From: a virus
Taxonomy: Duplodnaviria > Heunggongvirae > Uroviricota > Caudoviricetes
Reading direction: 5' to 3' (one strand)
Virus record (IMG/VR): IMGVR_UViG_3300029841_000297
DNA: 6,473 bases
The notes beneath the pieces were generated by a model. The model did no database searches and was not told where the DNA came from. It saw only the letters and a list, made by a program, of their open reading frames with translations. Both the position numbers and the translations under genes were made by a program. Position 1 is the stretch's first letter. The number at the start of each line of letters is the position of its first letter. This document shows positions 1 through 6,473 of the stretch, in pieces.

Positions 1-93
1 GCTGAAAATCTGTCCGCTCTGGAGCAGGATATCACCAGGCTGGAAAAAGCAGCGGCATTAAGCATTGCCAGAATGATTACATACCCGCGTTAA
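1..93 (+). CDS. 3' end of a gene of unknown function (5' part lies outside the window)
   Basis: Open frame 1 from the window edge (...AENLSALEQDITRLEKAAALSIARMITYPR*) ending in tandem stops TAA TAG at 91..96. The next gene starts 22 bp downstream on the same strand. Confidence 0.4.
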   Translation, partial: AENLSALEQDITRLEKAAALSIARMITYPR

Positions 94-115
94 TAGCTAA
101 CCAACGAGGCTAATA

Positions 116-454
116 ATGGAATTTAAAGATTTACCTCCTTCAATCCAGGAGATTGCAGCACACACACTTCGTCATCGTCTGAACGAACTTGAATTGGAAT
201 CGGTAACAAAAAAAGACACTGATAATATGGCTCGCAATGTGCGCGATGCGTTTACTGGGCTGTTTTCAGATACAGCTTTAAATATCCATGGCACAGAGGA
301 TACAGCAAAACAATTTGCAGAAAAAGAAGTGGAAGATCCCAGTTCAAAGAGCCAGAAACAGCCAAACAACCATGAAATTAACGAACTGCTTCTGGCAACA
401 GGCTTCATAAATATTAACGAATATGAACGCCGTAAAAAAATGTTATCTGATTAA
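116..454 (+). CDS. Hypothetical phage protein, 112 aa, charged and hydrophilic; function unknown
   Basis: ATG at 116 preceded by GAGG at 106..109 (6-nt spacing); uninterrupted 112-codon frame; no motif I can recognise. Confidence 0.6.
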   Translation: MEFKDLPPSIQEIAAHTLRHRLNELELESVTKKDTDNMARNVRDAFTGLFSDTALNIHGTEDTAKQFAEKEVEDPSSKSQKQPNNHEINELLLATGFININEYERRKKMLSD

Positions 455-637
455 TCCATCAAGATATCTTTTTAGCATCAGCGTTTCTACGTTATTAAAA
501 CCATCAGATTTTAACATAGCTTCGATTCGCTGATTTAAATTGCCAACTAACTGTTGATACTGAGTAGATGGAAGCATGTGTACCAGCTCCTTGAGAACAC
601 AATAACATGCACCAAGTTTTAACTCCTGCTCTGACAT
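443..637 (-). CDS. Hypothetical small protein, 64 aa (MSEQELKLGACYCVLKELVHMLPSTQYQQLVGNLNQRIEAMLKSDGFNNVETLMLKRYLDGLIR), likely helical; opposite orientation to the rest of the operon
   Basis: ATG at 637..635 preceded on the minus strand by GGAGG at 7-nt spacing. The longer 443..709 frame in the ORF track begins at a GTG with no ribosome-binding site. Its 3' end overlaps the 116..454 gene by 12 bp. Confidence 0.55.
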   Translation of the reverse strand: MSEQELKLGACYCVLKELVHMLPSTQYQQLVGNLNQRIEAMLKSDGFNNVETLMLKRYLDGLIR

Positions 638-1212
638 TTTATCCTCCATTGAGGTTACTGGTTGAGAATGGAGACCTCTCGTGACAGCGTGTGGTCGTGC
701 GCCGGACACGGATAAGAATCCGGCACTGACAGTTTACTGAAAGGATATTTCCCTGAAAAGTCAGACCATAACGCGAAAGCGTACGGCGAGGTAGCTGGTT
801 CATAGATAGCCTGTCGTTAAATTTTCGTCGACCGTGCGCTTCCGGTTGTGGCAATCCGCGAAATGGCGCGGCGGTAAGTATGGCGGGGTTATTCCTTCCC
901 CCGTTGAGGACACCGGGTTGTCAGGTTGACCATACGCTTAAGTGACAACCCCGCTGCAACGCCCTCTGTTATCAATTTTCTGGTGACGTTTGGCGGTATC
1001 AGTTTTACTCCGTGACTGCTCTGCCGCCCTTTTTAAAGTGAATTTTGTGATGCGGTGAATGCGGCTGAGCGCACGCGGAACAGTTAAAGCAGTAAGGCGG
1101 TCTTTTACTGGCGTAACGAGCATCAACTAACCCGGCGTTAATTGTTAACTGGTTAACGTCACCTGGAGGCACCAGGCACTGCATCACAAAATTCATTGTT
1201 GAGGACGCGATA
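638..1212. promoter_or_regulatory. ~575-bp ORF-poor region with multiple perfect hairpins: candidate structured ncRNA and/or promoter-operator region for the flanking divergent genes
   Basis: No + strand ORF longer than ~23 codons. Perfect inverted repeats at 701..724 (6 bp), 771..782 (ACGC-GAAA-GCGT, GNRA-type tetraloop), 915..951 (9 bp stem, 19-nt loop) and 1162..1176; imperfect palindrome with two GTTAAC hexamers at 1136..1158. GC is about 52% against about 40% in neighbouring phage genes. Confidence 0.3.
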
Positions 1213-1681: not shown

Positions 1682-4153
1682 ATGAGTAAAGTCTTTATTT
1701 GCGCCGCCATTCCGGACGAACAGGCAATAAAGGAAGAAGGTGCCGTCGCTGTAGCCACTGCCATTGAAGCCGGTGATGAACGTCGCGCCCGCGCAAAATT
1801 TCACTGGCAATTCCTGGAACATTATCCGGCTGCTCAGGACTGCGCTTATAAATTTCTTGTCTGCGAGGATAAACCCGGTATACCCCGCCCTGCCCTCGAT
1901 TCCTGGGATGCTGAATATATGCAGGAAAACCGCTGGGATGAGGCGTCTGCTTCCTTTGTCCCGGTTGAGACTGAATCAGATCCGATGAACGTCACTTTTG
2001 ACAAGCTGGCCCCTGAAGTACAGAACGCTGTCATGGTTAAGTTCGACACATGTGAAAACATCACCGTTGATATGGTGATTAGCGCGCAGGAACTGTTGCA
2101 GGAAGACATGGCAACATTCGACGGACATATCGTTGAAGCGTTGATGAAAATGCCAGAAGTTAACGCCATGTATCCGGAGCTTAAGCTGCATGCCATCGGG
2201 TGGGTTAAGCATAAATGTAAGCCTGGTGCCAAATGGCCCGAAATTCAGGCAGAGATGCGCATCTGGAAAAAACGTCGCGAAGGTGAACGCAAGGAAGCCG
2301 GAAAATACACGTCTGTTGTTGATCTCGCCCGCGCCAGAGCCAATCAACAGCACACTGAAAATTCAACAGGAAAAATCAACCCGGTCATTGCTGCCATTCA
2401 TCGCGAATACAAGCAGACATGGAAAACACTGGATGACGAACTGGCCTACGCTCTCTGGCCTGGTGATGTGGATGCCGGAAACATTGACGGCAGCATCCAT
2501 CGCTGGGCAAAAAATGAAGTTATCGACAACGACCGCGAAGACTGGAAGCGTATCTCGGCATCAATGCGCAAACAGCCTGATGCCCTTCGCTACGACCGCC
2601 AGACTATTTTTGGCCTTGTCCGTGAACGTCCGATCGACATTCACAAAGACCCTGTGGCACTGAACAAATACATTACTGAATACCTGACTACAAAGGGCGT
2701 GTTTGAAGATGAAGGAACAAATCAGAGCGCAACTGATACTCTCTCGTCGCCAGTACCAGAAACTGATGCAGTGGAAACGGCAATTCCGGACAACGAAAAA
2801 ACCGAATGCAAAGTGGAAGTCGAACCATCTGTAGAACGTGAGGGGCCGTTCTACTTCCTCTTCACCGACAAGGATGGCGAAAAATACGGTCGCGCAAACA
2901 AACTTTCTGGTCTGGATAAGGCGCTGTCTGCTGGGGCTACTGAAATCACGAAAGAAGAATATTTCGCCCGCAAAAACGGTACATACTCAGGTTCACAACA
3001 AAATACTGGTGCATCTGACACGACCGCACAACCAGGGTCAGTAAAAGTTACCGCTGACGAAGTAAACAAAATTATGCAGGCAGCCAATATCAGCCAGCCT
3101 GACGCCGATGAACTGCTTGCAGTATCACGTGGTGAATTTGTTGAAGGGATTAGCGACCCGAATGATCCGAAATGGGTTAAGGGGAACCAGACCCGCGATT
3201 CTGTGAACCAGAACCAGCAAGAAACGGAACAGAACGACCAGAAAGCGGAACAAAACAGCCCAAATGCGTTACAAAACGAGCCAGAAACGAAACAGCCTGA
3301 ATCAGTGGCGCAACAGGAAGTGGAAAAAGTCTGCACCGCCTGCGGTCAGACCGGCGGCGGCAACTGCCCTGATTGTGGCGCGGTAATGGGCGACGCAACA
3401 TACCAGGAAACATTCGATGAAGAGTATCAGCCTGAAGTTCAGGAAGATGATCCGGAGGAAATGGAAGGCGCTGAACATCCACACAAGGAGAACACTGGCG
3501 GCAATCAGCATCACGATAGCGATAATGAAACTGGCGAGACGGCAGATCACTCAATTAAGGTGAACGGTCATCAAGAAATCACATCCACCAGCAGGACGTG
3601 TGACCATCTAATGATCGACCTTGAAACCATGGGAAAAAATCCTGATGCCCCGATCATCTCAATAGGTGCAATATTTTTCGATCCGCAAACCGGAGATATG
3701 GGACCGGAATTTAGTAAGACTATCGATCTGGAAACTGCTGGCGGGGTCATTGATCGGGACACCATTAAATGGTGGCTTAAGCAATCACGCGAAGCGCAAT
3801 CTGCCATTATGACCGATGAAATCCCGTTAGATGATGCACTGTTACAATTGCGGGAATTTATCGACGAAAACTCCGGTGAATTTTTTGTTCAGGTTTGGGG
3901 AAATGGAGCCAACTTCGACAACACGATTTTGCGCCGTTCATACGAACGGCAGGGGATCCCCTGCCCGTGGCGTTACTACAACGATCGCGATGTACGCACA
4001 ATCGTTGAGCTGGGGAAAGCCATAGACTTCGATGCCAGAACGGCTATTCCATTCGAAGGTGAGCGCCATAATGCACTTGATGACGCTCGTTACCAGGCAA
4101 AATACGTTTCAGCTATCTGGCAAAAACTGATCCCGAGTCAGGCTGATTTTTAA
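1682..4153 (+). CDS. Large phage exonuclease, 823 aa: RecE (exodeoxyribonuclease VIII)-like N-terminal and middle region, acidic/Q-rich linkers, a CxxC-x10-CxxC zinc-ribbon-like motif, and a C-terminal DEDDh (DnaQ/RNase T-like) 3'-5' exonuclease domain
   Basis: GAGG at 1669..1672 about 9 nt before ATG 1682; 823-codon frame. C-terminal domain (about nt 3599..4150) carries exo motif I MIDLETMG (D at 3617..3619, E at 3623..3625), motif II WGNGANFDN and motif III HNALDDARY (H at 4067..4069), the DEDDh pattern. The segment LLAVSRGEFVEGISDPNDPKWVKGNQTRD matches what I recall of Rac RecE (from memory, unverified). Cys cluster CTACGQTGGGNCPDCG at 3332..3376. Confidence 0.8.
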   Translation: MSKVFICAAIPDEQAIKEEGAVAVATAIEAGDERRARAKFHWQFLEHYPAAQDCAYKFLVCEDKPGIPRPALDSWDAEYMQENRWDEASASFVPVETESDPMNVTFDKLAPEVQNAVMVKFDTCENITVDMVISAQELLQEDMATFDGHIVEALMKMPEVNAMYPELKLHAIGWVKHKCKPGAKWPEIQAEMRIWKKRREGERKEAGKYTSVVDLARARANQQHTENSTGKINPVIAAIHREYKQTWKTLDDELAYALWPGDVDAGNIDGSIHRWAKNEVIDNDREDWKRISASMRKQPDALRYDRQTIFGLVRERPIDIHKDPVALNKYITEYLTTKGVFEDEGTNQSATDTLSSPVPETDAVETAIPDNEKTECKVEVEPSVEREGPFYFLFTDKDGEKYGRANKLSGLDKALSAGATEITKEEYFARKNGTYSGSQQNTGASDTTAQPGSVKVTADEVNKIMQAANISQPDADELLAVSRGEFVEGISDPNDPKWVKGNQTRDSVNQNQQETEQNDQKAEQNSPNALQNEPETKQPESVAQQEVEKVCTACGQTGGGNCPDCGAVMGDATYQETFDEEYQPEVQEDDPEEMEGAEHPHKENTGGNQHHDSDNETGETADHSIKVNGHQEITSTSRTCDHLMIDLETMGKNPDAPIISIGAIFFDPQTGDMGPEFSKTIDLETAGGVIDRDTIKWWLKQSREAQSAIMTDEIPLDDALLQLREFIDENSGEFFVQVWGNGANFDNTILRRSYERQGIPCPWRYYNDRDVRTIVELGKAIDFDARTAIPFEGERHNALDDARYQAKYVSAIWQKLIPSQADF
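3599..4150 (+). other. DEDDh 3'-5' exonuclease domain within the 823-aa protein
   Basis: Motifs D-x-E, D and H-x4-D in the canonical order and spacing of DnaQ-like/RNase T-like exonucleases. Confidence 0.7.
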
Positions 4154-4211: not shown

Positions 4212-4415
4212 ATGAGCAGCTTATTTTTAACCGAAGATGAATTGCTAATATTAACGGGCTGCAAATATGCAAGCCACCAGCGAAAATGGTTAATGGAAAA
4301 CGGGCTTCCGTTCTATACCAATCGTAGTGGCAAACCGATTGTCAGCCGGGATCTATTTACCTGCAATAAAACTTTACCACCACGCGAGGTAGAGCCGAAT
4401 TTTGGTGCGATCTGA
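4212..4415 (+). CDS. xis: Excisionase-like small DNA-binding protein, 67 aa (DUF4224-type, found immediately upstream of prophage integrases)
   Basis: Position directly upstream of int, with its stop overlapping the int start (ATGA-type junction at 4413..4417). The pattern LTxxELxxLTGxKxxxxQxxWLxxNGLPF is typical of this family (recalled). Confidence 0.7.
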   Translation: MSSLFLTEDELLILTGCKYASHQRKWLMENGLPFYTNRSGKPIVSRDLFTCNKTLPPREVEPNFGAI

Positions 4416-5440
4416 TGGGAAGACGAAGGAAAAATCCTGAACACGAAAAATTACCTCCAAATGTATACCCAAATAAATATAGTTATGTATGGAAACCAAC
4501 ATCCAGAGAATCTGTCACACTAACCGCCATCAAGGATGGTTTAGCTGCTTTATGGAAAAAGTATGAGGAAACTGTAAATAATCGCGATCGTGCAATGACA
4601 TTCGGTCGCTTGTGGGAAAAATTCCTCGCCAGCGCCTGTTACAGTGACCTTAGTCCAAGAACACAAAAAGATTATCTGCAACATCAAAAAAAGTTGCTTG
4701 CCGTATTCGGTAAGGTACCAGCGGATTCCATAAAACCAGAACACATCCGTCGATACATGGACAAAAGAGGGGAGCAGAGTAAAACGCAAGCCAACCATGA
4801 AAAAAGCAGTATGTCCCGTGTTTACAGTTGGGGGTATGAGCGAGGGTACGTCAAGGCTAACCCATGTGCAGGTGTAAGTAAATTCAAGGCCAAAAACCGC
4901 GAACGATATGTAACCGACAAAGAATACCAGGCAGTATTAAGCGTTGCACCTCTTCCTGTTTTTATCGCAATGGAAATTGCCTATCTGTGTGCAGCGAGGG
5001 TTTCCGATGTGTTATCGCTGAAATGGGAACAGATTGGAAACGACGGGATATTCATCCAGCAAGGGAAAACCGGAAAAAAACAGATAAAAGCATGGAGTCC
5101 ACGATTACAGGCAGCGATCGAAAAAGCAAAACAGTTACCAAAATCTGCCTATGTGATCAGCAATCAATACGGCAACCGATATATGTACAAAGGCTTTAAC
5201 GAAATGTGGGTAGAAGCAAGAAATCGTGCTGGAAAAATTTCAGGTATTTTAACCGACTTCACCTTTCATGATCTGAAGGCGAAAGGAATTTCAGACTATG
5301 AAGGAAGCAGCCGGGATAAGCAACTTTTCTCTGGTCACAAAACCGAAGGGCAAGTGCTAATCTATGACAGGAAGGTTAAAGTTTCACCAACACTTGATGT
5401 CCCGTTACCTGAAAATATTCCAAGAAAATATTCCAAGTAA
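4415..5440 (+). CDS. int: Lambda-family tyrosine integrase, 341 aa, with N-terminal arm-binding domain
   Basis: N-terminus MGRRRKNPEHEKLPPNVY resembles lambda Int MGRRRSHERRDLPPNLY. Catalytic-region matches: AARVSDVLSLKWEQI (Arg I), QQGKTG (Lys), FHDLK (box II), GHKTEGQVLIYDR (His and Tyr nucleophile) versus lambda RVGDLCEMKWSDI / SKTG / FHELR / GHKSDTMASQYRDD. Lies next to a tRNA gene. Confidence 0.93.
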   Translation: MGRRRKNPEHEKLPPNVYPNKYSYVWKPTSRESVTLTAIKDGLAALWKKYEETVNNRDRAMTFGRLWEKFLASACYSDLSPRTQKDYLQHQKKLLAVFGKVPADSIKPEHIRRYMDKRGEQSKTQANHEKSSMSRVYSWGYERGYVKANPCAGVSKFKAKNRERYVTDKEYQAVLSVAPLPVFIAMEIAYLCAARVSDVLSLKWEQIGNDGIFIQQGKTGKKQIKAWSPRLQAAIEKAKQLPKSAYVISNQYGNRYMYKGFNEMWVEARNRAGKISGILTDFTFHDLKAKGISDYEGSSRDKQLFSGHKTEGQVLIYDRKVKVSPTLDVPLPENIPRKYSK

Positions 5441-5447
5441 TTCCAAG
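5414..5447. repeat. Direct repeats AAATATTCCAAG x2 (5413..5424, 5426..5437) plus a third TTCCAAG (5441..5447) spanning the int stop codon; candidate arm-type integrase binding sites
   Basis: Perfect 12-bp direct repeat at 13-bp period and a third heptamer copy 10 bp on, about 45 bp from the tRNA 3' end. Confidence 0.35.
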
Positions 5448-5492
5448 TGTGATTTTTGTCACTGACTTAATGATGTGTAAGTGATTGAATTT

Positions 5493-5540
5493 TGGCGGAG
5501 AGAGGGGGATTTGAACCCCCGGTGGAGTTGCCCCCACTCC
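5493..5540. other. Probable att core / prophage-host junction overlapping the 3' portion of tRNA-Ser (attL in lambda convention); extent approximate
   Basis: The integrase is transcribed toward the tRNA and ends 52 bp from its 3' end. Tyrosine-integrase prophages at tRNA genes carry a core identical to the tRNA 3' segment. The second copy needed to delimit it is outside the window. Confidence 0.45.
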
Positions 5541-5582
5541 GGTTTTCGAGACCGGTCCGTTCAGCCGCTCCGGCATCTCTCC
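5493..5582 (-). tRNA. serU: tRNA-Ser (anticodon CGA), 90 nt, class II tRNA with long variable arm
   Basis: Reverse complement reads GGAGAGATGCCGGAGCGGCTGAACGGACCGGTCTCGAAAACCGGAGTGGGGGCAACTCCACCGGGGGTTCAAATCCCCCTCTCTCCGCCA: 7-bp acceptor stem, anticodon loop CU-CGA-AA, T-loop GGTTCAAAT, 3' GCCA. Adjacent to mtfA as in E. coli (recalled gene order). Confidence 0.95.
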
Positions 5583-5675
5583 GTTCAGATGGTTGCCATG
5601 ATGCCAGGAAATTTGGCATTTTAACAGTCCCTGTCCGTGCAATTTTGTTCAAGTGACGAGTTTGCGAGCAAAACG
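5583..5675. promoter_or_regulatory. Divergent intergenic region expected to carry the tRNA-Ser and mtfA promoters
   Basis: Lies between the 5' ends of the two divergent genes. On the minus strand a TAAAAT -10-like hexamer (5619..5624) sits upstream of the tRNA; hairpin ATGCCA-GGAAATT-TGGCAT at 5601..5619. No clear -35. Confidence 0.3.
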
Positions 5676-6473
5676 ATGATTAAGTGGCCCTGGAAAGTAC
5701 AAGAATCAGCACATCAAACTGCCCTTCCCTGGCAGGAAGCACTATCGATCCCCCTTTTAACGTGTCTGACAGAACAGGAACAAAGCAAATTGGTCGCTCT
5801 TGCCGAACGTTTTTTACAGCAAAAACGGCTTGTTCCTTTACAGGGCTTTGAGCTGAATTCATTAAGAAGCTGCCGGATAGCACTTCTATTTTGCCTGCCC
5901 GTTCTGGAGTTAGGACTGGAATGGCTGGATGGTTTTCATGAAGTCTTAATTTATCCTGCGCCATTTGTGGTCGATGATGAATGGGAAGACGATATCGGTC
6001 TGGTGCATAACCAACGTATTGTTCAGTCAGGTCAGAGCTGGCAGCAAGGGCCTATCGTTTTGAACTGGTTGGATATACAAGATTCTTTTGATGCTTCTGG
6101 TTTTAACCTGATTATTCATGAAGTCGCTCATAAGCTGGACACCCGTAACGGCGATCGCGCCAGCGGAGTTCCCTTTATTTCGTTGCGTGAGGTTGCTGGC
6201 TGGGAACACGATCTTCATGCTGCAATGAACAACATTCAGGAAGAAATCGAATTAGTTGGTGAGAATGCGGCGAGCATTGATGCTTATGCTGCCAGTGATC
6301 CTGCTGAATGTTTTGCCGTACTTTCTGAATATTTCTTTAGCGCCCCAGAACTTTTTGCTCCTCGTTTCCCTTCATTGTGGCAACGTTTCTGTCAATTTTA
6401 TCAACAAGATCCTTTGCAGAGACTGCATCACGCTAATGATACAGACTCGTTTTCGGCGACGAATGTTCATTAA
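5676..6473 (+). CDS. mtfA: MtfA, Mlc titration factor A / zinc-dependent peptidase, 265 aa
   Basis: Protein [23 protein letters not shown]... with HEVAH metallopeptidase motif; length and sequence match E. coli MtfA as I recall it. The ORF-track frame 5637..6473 begins at an upstream in-frame GTG; ATG 5676 is preferred. Confidence 0.9.

What the first reader, a model, noticed from the sequence alone, without database searches (positions are those of the whole stretch)
443..637. Lone opposite-strand 64-aa gene, convergently overlapping its neighbour and fronted by the structured region
It is the only well-supported minus-strand gene in the prophage part, has a strong GGAGG ribosome-binding site, and its last 12 bp overlap the 3' end of the 116..454 gene, so each transcript would be antisense to the other's 3' end. 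Independently oriented small genes in lambdoid early regions are often morons (superinfection exclusion, toxin/antitoxin, host-modulating functions). The protein is predicted helical with no motif I recognise.
Basis: seen in the sequence. Interest (0 to 1): 0.45.

Follow-up and report, generated by a model that had tools for sequence, protein, structure and literature searches.

The report
Prophage cargo gene resembling short IraP
The opposite-strand 64-codon gene is a real, selected accessory gene sitting in a swappable slot of a Qin/dicBF-type E. coli prophage, and it encodes a small three-helix protein that looks like a distant, shortened relative of IraP, the host protein that protects the stress sigma factor RpoS from degradation; its function has never been tested.

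Summary
The ORF at 443-637 (-) has ATG at 637, GGAGG at 647-643 and a 12-bp tail-to-tail overlap with the 116-454 (+) gene. It is a real gene: RefSeq annotates it (WP_001295058.1, hypothetical), it belongs to phrog_4987, and 64-67-aa homologues occur in E. coli, Salmonella, Citrobacter and Edwardsiella with dN/dS of 0.11-0.31.

The window is the dicBF (Qin-like) early-left operon of a prophage at tRNA-Ser/mtfA. The "structured region" is the known untranslated dicF leader.

The gene is cargo. K-12 Qin lacks about 111-649, 152 of 5426 E. coli genomes carry this allele, and two other unrelated small minus-strand genes occupy the same slot behind the same leader.

The upstream ~95 nt form a conserved 5' hairpin, a co-varying second hairpin and a stem that pairs with the ribosome-binding site.

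The protein is a weak but consistent relative of IraP (PF10796) that lacks IraP's first ~18 residues. One member passes Pfam's threshold, and predicted helix breaks coincide.

An RssB/RpoS-directed function is inferred, not shown. No promoter was identified. Interest is moderate.

The parts
443..637 (-). 64-aa CDS: cargo gene encoding a predicted three-helix protein, a distant short IraP-like family (phrog_4987; WP_001295058.1)
   Evidence: ORF listing, PGAP annotation in a near-identical prophage and PHROG match. dN/dS is 0.11-0.31. The AF2 model has pLDDT 80 with helices at 3-20, 24-44 and 49-62.
643..647 (-). Shine-Dalgarno GGAGG, 5 nt upstream of the ATG
   Evidence: Read directly from the sequence. 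ATGGAG(G/A) is conserved in front of the ATG in all homologous loci.
667..674 (-). Anti-SD segment TCTCCATT, complementary to AATGGAGG; it forms the SD-occluding stem (HP3)
   Evidence: The RNAalifold consensus pairs CUCCAU with AUGGAG in 9 loci, with one compensatory change (phage Evi) and one G-U pair. The predicted unpaired probability of the GGAG is 0.01-0.43 across 10 loci. In the window itself an alternative local CCUC/GAGG stem is predicted.
673..696 (-). HP2: hairpin with conserved structure but variable sequence
   Evidence: At least five different stem sequences fold into the same position across loci. It is also present in K-12 Qin and phage Evi.
701..724 (-). HP1: invariant hairpin GCCGGA-N12-TCCGGC, the likely 5' end of the cargo mRNA. 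It is equally the first conserved block of the plus-strand dicF leader.
   Evidence: It is conserved in every locus that carries the gene, even at 36% protein identity, and in K-12. Which strand uses it is not resolved.
731..736 (-). Candidate -10 hexamer TAAACT, 6 nt upstream of HP1 (weak, by eye only)
   Evidence: -10-like hexamers lie 6-9 nt upstream of HP1 in several loci (sequences). The consensus scans found no promoter there.
116..454 (+). Convergent partner CDS, 112 aa (N-terminal ~100 aa match phrog_2151). Its C-terminal part co-varies with the minus-strand cargo gene.
   Evidence: ORF listing and PHROG matches. The N-terminal ~50 aa are shared with the partners in phage Evi and O157, whose C-terminal parts differ.
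371..451 (+). Partner C-terminal tail (HEINELLLATGFININEYERRKKMLSD), which is co-inherited with the 64-aa gene
   Evidence: The motif [ED]xL[LR][LV]xxGhhxhxE[YF] occurs at the partner's C-terminus in 7 loci with three unrelated N-terminal types. It is absent in Citrobacter L003.
428..476 (.). A-run/AT-rich hairpin/T-run spanning the overlap; resembles a bidirectional terminator
   Evidence: The minus strand folds at -11.9 kcal/mol (z = -2.3). The equivalent in L044 folds at -13.7 and -15.4 kcal/mol (z about -4). It is not present in the distant loci L004 and L008.
650..1029 (+). Context: the long untranslated leader of the dicBF operon, ending in the DicF sRNA (978-1029)
   Evidence: Rfam DicF at 76.7 bits. 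The leader is shared with K-12 Qin. Positions 856-953 match the region of phage P1 annotated 'dicF-like region'. Operon description from PMC5069750.

Best explanation
Shown:
- 443-637(-) is a genuine protein-coding accessory gene.
- It sits in a swappable slot of a Qin/dicBF-type prophage early-left operon, between ydfC and the untranslated dicF leader.
- It is read from the opposite strand.
- A conserved ~95-nt upstream region precedes it: an invariant 5' hairpin, a co-varying second hairpin, and a segment complementary to the ribosome-binding site.

Inferred from weak homology:
- The 64-aa three-helix protein is a distant relative of the RssB anti-adaptor IraP, lacking IraP's first ~18 residues.

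Inferred mechanism:
- It is made from its own transcript in the lysogen.
- Its translation is damped by the SD-occluding stem.
- It acts as a small stoichiometric protein binder. By descent the most likely target is the ClpXP adaptor RssB or its regulation, which would shift sigma-S (RpoS) stability in the host's or prophage's favour.

The target and the promoter are not demonstrated.
For: Real gene:
- PGAP CDS in a near-identical prophage and a phrog_4987 match with E = 3e-49.
- Homologues of 64-67 aa in four genera, with dN/dS of 0.11-0.31.

Cargo in a slot:
- K-12 Qin lacks about 111-649 but keeps ydfC and the leader.
- 152 of 5426 E. coli genomes carry this allele.
- A different 77-aa gene (650 of 5426 genomes) and a different 69-aa gene follow the same leader and SD in phage Evi and in O157:H7.
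- In every homologous locus the gene opposes its neighbours and abuts the same leader.

5' region:
-.

IraP link:
- PF10796 is the top Pfam hit for the window protein (E = 0.062, 14.4 bits).
- The Edwardsiella member P0008 (45% identical; profile E = 2.6e-11) scores 24.5 bits, above the gathering score of 23.2, with E = 4.6e-5 over residues 3-65 against model positions 20-83.
- 7 of 13 members hit PF10796, and no other family is hit by more than 2.
- hhalign of the family against IraP gives P = 5.6e-4 in the same register.
- Shuffle controls give empirical P of <2e-4 to 0.02.
- The AF2 helix breaks of the protein (21-23 and 45-48) map with the +18 offset onto IraP's breaks (39-41 and the end of the 59-66 loop).
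- NCBI already labels two members 'IraP'.
Against: - The homology is weak. The window protein is below Pfam's threshold, and there is no NCBIfam hit.
- hhalign probability is only 30%. A pairwise BLASTP against IraP finds nothing.
- The six Salmonella-type members give no Pfam hit.
- A whole-library HMMER search with the family profile did not retrieve IraP at E <= 0.001.
- The protein lacks IraP's N-terminal segment, which includes L9. The L9S change lowers IraP activity, and that region was proposed as the RssB contact (PMC4428439). An identical mode of action is therefore doubtful.
- No sigma-70 consensus promoter was found upstream.
- The leader hairpins persist in K-12 without any cargo gene, so they may serve the plus-strand dicF precursor instead.
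- Fold searches were uninformative.
- There are no expression data.
Confidence: 0.35

Rival explanations
1. The gene forms a cognate pair with its convergent partner. The slot holds a polymorphic two-gene cassette in which the variable C-terminal part of the plus-strand protein and the small minus-strand protein work together, for example a short C-terminal helix docking onto the three-helix protein as an effector/inhibitor or regulator pair. On this view the IraP resemblance is secondary or irrelevant.
For: - Three E. coli alleles pair a shared partner N-terminus (MEFKDLP...) with different C-terminal parts and different minus-strand genes.
- Within the 64-aa family, the last ~22 residues of the partner are conserved across three unrelated partner N-termini. 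The tail-only BLASTP E-value is about 1e-6 between the Edwardsiella and Salmonella types.
- The tail-to-tail overlap of 4-33 nt is kept in 7 loci.
Against: - Simple physical linkage, with the recombination joint falling inside the partner gene, explains the co-inheritance without any functional tie.
- Citrobacter L003 carries the gene without that tail.
- Some E. coli copies have a truncated partner.
- The window-type tail resembles the others only at motif level.
- No complex prediction could be run.
Confidence: 0.2
2. It is an unrelated small helical moron of another class, such as superinfection exclusion, anti-defence, or a regulator of the adjacent DicF/C4-type immunity leader. The IraP similarity is a chance match between short helical proteins.
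For: - All IraP statistics are marginal for the window protein itself.
- The gene always lies next to the sRNA leader of antirepressor or division-inhibitor operons: DicF here, a C4 antisense RNA in Salmonella loci L008/L009.
- Early-left opposite-strand genes in lambdoid phages are often exclusion functions (general knowledge).
Against: - PF10796 is the only family hit repeatedly (7 of 13 members), always in one register, and one member is above threshold.
- Predicted helix boundaries coincide with IraP's.
- There are no PADLOC hits, and nothing else was found in Pfam or NCBIfam.
Confidence: 0.3
3. It is not a functional protein gene. The ORF would be a by-product of the sequence, with the real function lying in antisense or convergent transcription that damps read-through of the early-left operon into the toxic dicF-dicB genes.
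For: - The arrangement is convergent with the operon.
- The overlap region contains a terminator-like hairpin that could act on both strands.
- Unrelated ORFs occupy the same slot, so any transcribed insert might serve this purpose.
Against: - dN/dS is 0.11-0.31, and ORF length and start are conserved down to 36% identity.
- There is a strong SD at ideal spacing.
- K-12 Qin tolerates an empty slot.
Confidence: 0.05

Closest known systems
IraP (YaiB), RssB anti-adaptor that stabilises sigma-S; Pfam PF10796, NCBIfam NF007598
   Same: - Both are small, all-helical cytoplasmic proteins of Enterobacterales.
- They align without gaps: residues 1-64 here against IraP 19-82.
- Family-invariant residues coincide: E3/E21, A10/A28, L30/L48, Y58/Y76 and L62/L80.
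- Predicted helix breaks fall at the same aligned positions.
- One family member passes the Pfam gathering score.
   Different: - It is 64 aa rather than 86 aa. It lacks the first ~18 residues of IraP's long N-terminal helix, including L9.
- Identity is only about 11-14%.
- It is prophage-borne, in an early-left operon slot, rather than a chromosomal gene.
- Its 5' region is different and occludes the SD.
- RssB binding has not been tested.
Phage morons (independently expressed accessory genes in temperate phages)
   Same: - It shows presence/absence polymorphism between otherwise homologous prophages.
- It has opposite orientation and its own ribosome-binding site and leader.
- It has lower GC than its flank.
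- Alternative genes occupy the same position.
   Different: - A classic moron carries its own promoter and terminator. Here no consensus promoter was found.
- The expression platform (leader, SD) is shared among different cargo genes and lies inside the conserved dicF leader.
dicBF operon of the Qin prophage (ydfABC-dicF-dicB-ydfD)
   Same: The window holds the ydfC 3' end, the untranslated leader, DicF, dicB, a DUF1482/ydfD-like gene and an exonuclease, in the K-12 order (PMC5069750).
   Different: K-12 has nothing between ydfC and the leader. The window has a two-gene convergent insert of about 540 bp.
Other horizontally acquired modulators of RpoS turnover (IraM, IraD, IraL; prophage-encoded AppY)
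   Same: There is precedent for accessory or prophage genes acting on the RssB pathway (PMC10057817; PMC4045071 listed).
   Different: There is no sequence relationship to any of these, and no functional data exist for this gene.

Membership tests
IraP / PF10796 (Anti-adapt_IraP) | Scores at or above the Pfam gathering score (23.2 bits) | tested here: not met
   The window protein scores 14.4 bits, E = 0.062. Its relative P0008 (45% identical) scores 24.5 bits. 7 of 13 family members hit at E <= 1.
IraP / NF007598 equivalog | Scores at or above the NCBIfam equivalog cut-off (78 bits) | tested here: not met
   The window protein has no hit. The best family member reaches 26.8 bits, and only with a spurious N-terminal extension. 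E. coli IraP scores 137 bits.
IraP | About 86 aa, with a long N-terminal (coiled-coil) helix covering residues 1-35, including L9 | tested here: not met
   The protein is 64 aa and aligns to IraP residues 19-82 only. IraP's helix 2-38 corresponds to helix 3-20 here. The importance of L9S and the coiled coil comes from PMC4428439.
IraP | Three-helix layout with breaks at equivalent positions | tested here: met
   AF2 predicts helices 3-20, 24-44 and 49-62 here, against 2-38, 42-58 and 67-82 in IraP. With the +18 offset the first break (21-23 against 39-41) and the start of the last helix (49 against 67) coincide. Both are predictions with pLDDT of about 80.
IraP | Binds RssB and stabilises RpoS | not testable with these tools
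   This needs pull-down or two-hybrid assays and RpoS half-life measurements. No multimer prediction was available.
Phage moron | Present or absent between otherwise collinear prophages, and not needed for the flanking operon | tested here: met
   K-12 Qin lacks about 111-649. 152 of 5426 genomes carry this allele. Other alleles occupy the same slot.
Phage moron | Own promoter and terminator, expressed in the lysogen | tested here: inconclusive
   No consensus sigma-70 promoter was found. A terminator-like A/T-flanked hairpin is present in this allele only. There are no expression data.
Known anti-phage defence proteins (PADLOC) | Match to a PADLOC-DB model | tested here: not met
   Neither the 64-aa protein, its relatives nor the window partner gave a hit.
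Type I toxin-antitoxin (small toxin with an SD-occluding 5' UTR) | Small hydrophobic membrane peptide plus a cis-antisense sRNA | tested here: not met
   The protein is amphipathic and soluble-looking, with three helices and no hydrophobic span. No Rfam family other than DicF was found in 380-1100.

The most novel reading that the evidence does not exclude
The slot between ydfC and the dicF/C4-type leader is a polymorphic two-component cassette. A shared expression platform on the minus strand drives interchangeable small proteins, and each of them is matched to the variable C-terminal module of the convergent plus-strand protein. In the allele studied here, a shortened IraP-like protein recognises the conserved ~22-residue C-terminal tail and/or RssB. 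That would tie a prophage early operon to ClpXP-adaptor control of sigma-S.
Probability: 0.1. Interest if true: 0.7.

Novelty: new variant of a known kind. Interest (0 to 1): 0.4.

Why it matters
If the protein acts on RssB, it would be a prophage-carried, minimal form of an anti-adaptor. Lysogens carrying it, including the reference strain ATCC 25922 and O104:H4 isolates, could have altered RpoS stability and stress tolerance.

A natural IraP lacking the N-terminal helix would also help define which part of IraP contacts RssB, for which no solved structure was found.

Separately, the shared leader with interchangeable cargo genes is a compact example of how accessory genes are swapped in lambdoid and P4-like prophages.

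If none of this holds, it is one more small hypothetical prophage gene.

Tried and rejected
- **tblastn of the protein against 50,697 phage records:** no match. The gene is seen only in prophages and IMG/VR contigs.
- **Scan of one genome per species:** no relative found.
- **phmmer and profile searches against PDB sequences:** nothing relevant.
- **Pairwise BLASTP against E. coli IraP:** nothing.
- **NCBIfam and PADLOC:** no hits.
- **The Citrobacter 'IraP' annotation (P0006, 103 aa)** owes part of its score to an N-terminal extension. That extension is translated from DNA homologous to the untranslated leader and is not conserved as protein. I rejected it as evidence for a full-length IraP.
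- **Consensus promoter scans upstream of the gene:** nothing in four loci.
- **Rfam at a permissive threshold over 380-1100:** only DicF.
- **Literature search for the accession:** no hits. A search for IraP together with prophage and anti-adaptor returned 14 papers, but none describes prophage IraP-like genes.
- **Two older papers** (Faubladier and Bouche 1994; Bougdour 2006) are not held in the library.
- **Considered and rejected by lack of any profile hit:** Hha/Cnu-like, Ral, Kil and DinI-type small proteins.

Full report
**What the window is**

The window is the left end of a Qin/dicBF-type lambdoid prophage, joined to the host chromosome.
- Rfam finds the DicF sRNA at 978-1029 (+) with 76.7 bits, and tRNA-Ser(CGA) at 5493-5582 (-).
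- Pfam identifies DicB (1213-1401), a DUF1482/YdfD-like protein, an 823-aa protein with an Rv2179c-like 3'-5' exonuclease domain, a DUF4224 protein and a tyrosine integrase.
- Comparison with annotated E. coli genomes shows that 1-93 is the 3' end of ydfC. The order ydfC, leader, dicF, dicB, ydfD-like, exonuclease matches K-12 Qin.
- The 'structured region' next to the finding is therefore the long untranslated region of the dicBF operon that contains dicF (PMC5069750). Part of it (856-953) matches the segment of phage P1 annotated 'dicF-like region'.

**The observation**

- The 64-codon ORF runs from ATG at 637 to TAA at 445-443 on the minus strand.
- GGAGG lies at 647-643, five bases before the ATG.
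- The plus-strand ORF 116-454 ends with TAA at 452-454, which gives a 12-bp tail-to-tail overlap.
- RefSeq annotates exactly this CDS (WP_001295058.1, hypothetical protein) as the only minus-strand gene between ydfA and the integrase in a 97%-identical prophage.

**Is it a gene?**

Yes.
- The protein matches phrog_4987 end to end, E = 3e-49.
- Searches of 5.8 and 1.8 billion proteins find a small family of about 14 clusters. All members are 64-67 aa when correctly started. They come from E. coli, Salmonella, Citrobacter and Edwardsiella, at 36-98% identity.
- Nei-Gojobori dN/dS on the fetched DNA is 0.11-0.31 for all unsaturated close pairs.
- The longer database versions (68, 88, 91 and 103 aa) are start-codon miscalls. 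The upstream ATGGAG is the Shine-Dalgarno sequence. It is out of frame in L045, and the 'extension' is not conserved as protein.

**It is cargo in a swappable slot**
- K-12 Qin goes directly from ydfC into the leader and lacks about 111-649. That stretch is both convergent genes plus the SD.
- Only 152 of 5426 complete E. coli genomes have the gene, among them ATCC 25922 and O104:H4 strains.
- None of 50,697 deposited phage genomes has it.
- In phage Evi and the PPompW prophages, the same leader and SD are followed by an unrelated 77-aa gene (phrog_10348, 650 of 5426 genomes).
- In O157:H7 JEONG-1266 the same leader and SD are followed by an unrelated 69-aa gene.
- The plus-strand partners of all three alleles share their first ~50 residues (MEFKDLP...) and differ after that.
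- The gene region is 32-36% GC, next to a leader of 49-59% GC.

**Conserved context of the family**

In every locus recovered, the gene opposes its neighbours. These loci are lambdoid prophages of E. coli, Citrobacter and one further genome (L044); an Edwardsiella tarda prophage; and Salmonella elements with Cox, Int_N, ASH and Derepression genes that look P4/P2-like.

In all of them its 5' side abuts the same leader. In Salmonella L008/L009 the sRNA that follows the leader is a C4 antisense RNA instead of DicF.

In seven of the eight distinct loci examined, the gene's 3' end overlaps a convergent ORF by 4-33 nt; Citrobacter L003 is the exception. The last ~22 residues of that ORF carry a shared motif ([ED]xL[LR][LV]xxGhhxhxE[YF]), although the N-terminal parts fall into three unrelated types. 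This similarity is statistically clear between the Edwardsiella and Salmonella types, with a tail-only BLASTP E-value of about 1e-6. For the window type it holds only at motif level. Citrobacter carries the gene without this tail. Whether this reflects function or mere linkage is open.

**The 5' region**

The ~95 nt before the ATG have three elements.
- HP1 (701-724): an invariant hairpin, GCCGGA-N12-TCCGGC.
- HP2 (673-696): a second hairpin whose stem sequence differs between loci while the hairpin is kept. At least five stem versions were seen.
- Anti-SD (674-667): a CUCCAU(U) segment complementary to the (A)AUGGAG(G) ribosome-binding site.

RNAalifold recovers HP1 and the SD stem in nine loci, with one compensatory change and one G-U pair. 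The predicted unpaired probability of the GGAG is 0.01-0.43. In the window itself a local CCUC/GAGG stem competes with it, and the overall fold is not more stable than shuffles (z = -0.85).

Two cautions apply. K-12 keeps HP1 and HP2 with no cargo gene, so these hairpins may belong to the plus-strand dicF precursor. Also, no consensus sigma-70 promoter is found upstream of HP1 in four loci. Only weak -10-like hexamers lie 6-9 nt upstream.

**The 3' end**

In this allele and in its close relative L044, the overlap lies within an A-run/AT-rich hairpin/T-run.
- The window's minus strand folds at -11.9 kcal/mol, z = -2.3.
- L044 folds at about -14 to -15 kcal/mol, z about -4.
- The structure resembles a bidirectional terminator.
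- It is absent from the distant loci, so it is not a family feature.

**What the protein is**

AlphaFold2 predicts three helices (3-20, 24-44, 49-62) with mean pLDDT of 80. The only recurrent profile hit is IraP (PF10796).
- The window protein scores 14.4 bits, E = 0.062.
- The Edwardsiella member P0008 scores 24.5 bits, E = 4.6e-5, above the gathering score, over residues 3-65 against model positions 20-83.
- 7 of 13 members hit it, and no other family is hit by more than 2.
- hhalign of the family against 15 IraP sequences gives P = 5.6e-4 (probability 30%) in the same ungapped register.
- Composition-preserving shuffles give empirical P of <2e-4 to 0.02.
- An AF2 model of IraP has helices 2-38, 42-58 and 67-82. 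With the +18 offset from the sequence alignment, the first break and the start of the last helix coincide.
- Family-invariant E3, A10, L30, Y58 and L62 align with the invariant or nearly invariant IraP residues E21, A28, L48, Y76 and L80.

I judge true homology more likely than not, at roughly two in three.

The protein lacks IraP's first ~18 residues. That segment includes L9, whose change to serine lowers IraP activity, and it was proposed as the RssB contact (PMC4428439). It also fails the NCBIfam equivalog model. It should therefore not be filed as IraP.

**Mechanism**

The best-supported reading is a lysogen-expressed small protein binder, descended from or sharing ancestry with IraP. Its translation is damped by the SD-occluding stem, and it may act on RssB and hence on RpoS turnover.

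There is precedent for accessory and prophage genes acting on this pathway (PMC10057817).

The gene's reality, the cargo slot, the context and the conserved 5' elements are shown. The homology is weakly supported. The target, the promoter and any phenotype are inferred.

The rivals are:
- a functional pair with the partner's C-terminal tail;
- an unrelated moron function, with the IraP match arising by chance;
- a purely transcriptional role, which the selection on the coding sequence makes unlikely.

**Verdict**

The gene is real but ordinary in kind: a small prophage accessory gene. Two modestly interesting points emerge. One is a shortened IraP-like protein on prophages. The other is a shared leader with interchangeable cargo genes whose convergent partners co-vary. 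Interest is 0.4.

Noticed in passing
window 111-649; L011 1329-1947; L048 1501-2349; L002 about 3093-3110: The slot between ydfC and the dicF leader has at least four states in E. coli. They are: empty (K-12); 112-aa (+) with 64-aa (-); 135-aa (+) with 77-aa (-) (phrog_10348, 650 of 5426 genomes); and 212-aa (+) with 69-aa (-) (O157:H7). The plus-strand partners share about 50 N-terminal residues, and their C-terminal parts change together with the minus-strand gene.
   Followed up: partly
window 371-451; L004 5204-5275; L008 5191-5260; L045 3191-3260; L047 3187-3255: A motif of about 22 residues at the partner's C-terminus ([ED]xL[LR][LV]xxGhhxhxE[YF]) travels with the 64-aa gene, although the partner N-termini are of three unrelated types. 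One of these types (L008) contains an HTH domain.
   Followed up: partly
window 673-724 (both strands); K-12 L002; L011; L048: Two hairpins open the conserved dicF leader. HP1 is invariant. HP2 keeps its structure with at least five different stem sequences. Both persist in K-12, where no minus-strand gene follows, so the strand on which they act is unresolved.
   Followed up: partly
L008 and L009 4181-4268 (-): In Salmonella P4/P2-like elements that carry a 65-aa homologue, the same leader is followed by a C4 antisense RNA (Rfam 72.6 bits) rather than DicF. After that come ASH and Derepression-family genes.
   Followed up: no
window 856-953; P1 AF234173 68420-68514: Part of the leader matches (77-82% identity) the region of phages P1 and P7 annotated 'dicF-like region'. 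In P1 this region lies downstream of the C1-controlled ban promoters and upstream of two tRNA genes.
   Followed up: no
L003 520-636 and 290-499: The Citrobacter homologue is annotated as 103-aa 'IraP'. Its miscalled N-terminal extension (translated leader DNA) happens to resemble IraP's N-terminus. Just upstream lies an uncalled ORF homologous to the O157 69-aa cargo gene, so two cargo genes sit in tandem there.
   Followed up: partly
L001 4203-5057: In strain GN02050 a Rha-family regulator gene lies between the leader and dicB, in an otherwise 97%-identical prophage. There the partner of the 64-aa gene is annotated as a truncated pseudogene.
   Followed up: no
window 4415-6473: This is the prophage-host junction. 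The integrase (4415-5440) ends 52 bp before tRNA-Ser(CGA) (5493-5582, minus strand). A host ORF that I recognise as mtfA, from memory and not checked with any tool, starts at 5637 and runs off the end of the window.
   Followed up: no
window 1682-4153: The 823-aa 'exonuclease' has its Rv2179c-like/RNase T-like domain only in the last ~180 residues. The preceding ~640 residues include long acidic, Q/E/T-rich stretches with no Pfam match.
   Followed up: no
window 53-70 (-): The only terminator-like site the scan found on the minus strand lies inside the ydfC 3' end. It is a 5-bp stem followed by a T-run, about 375 nt downstream of the 64-aa gene's stop, and is no better than chance expectation.
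   Followed up: no
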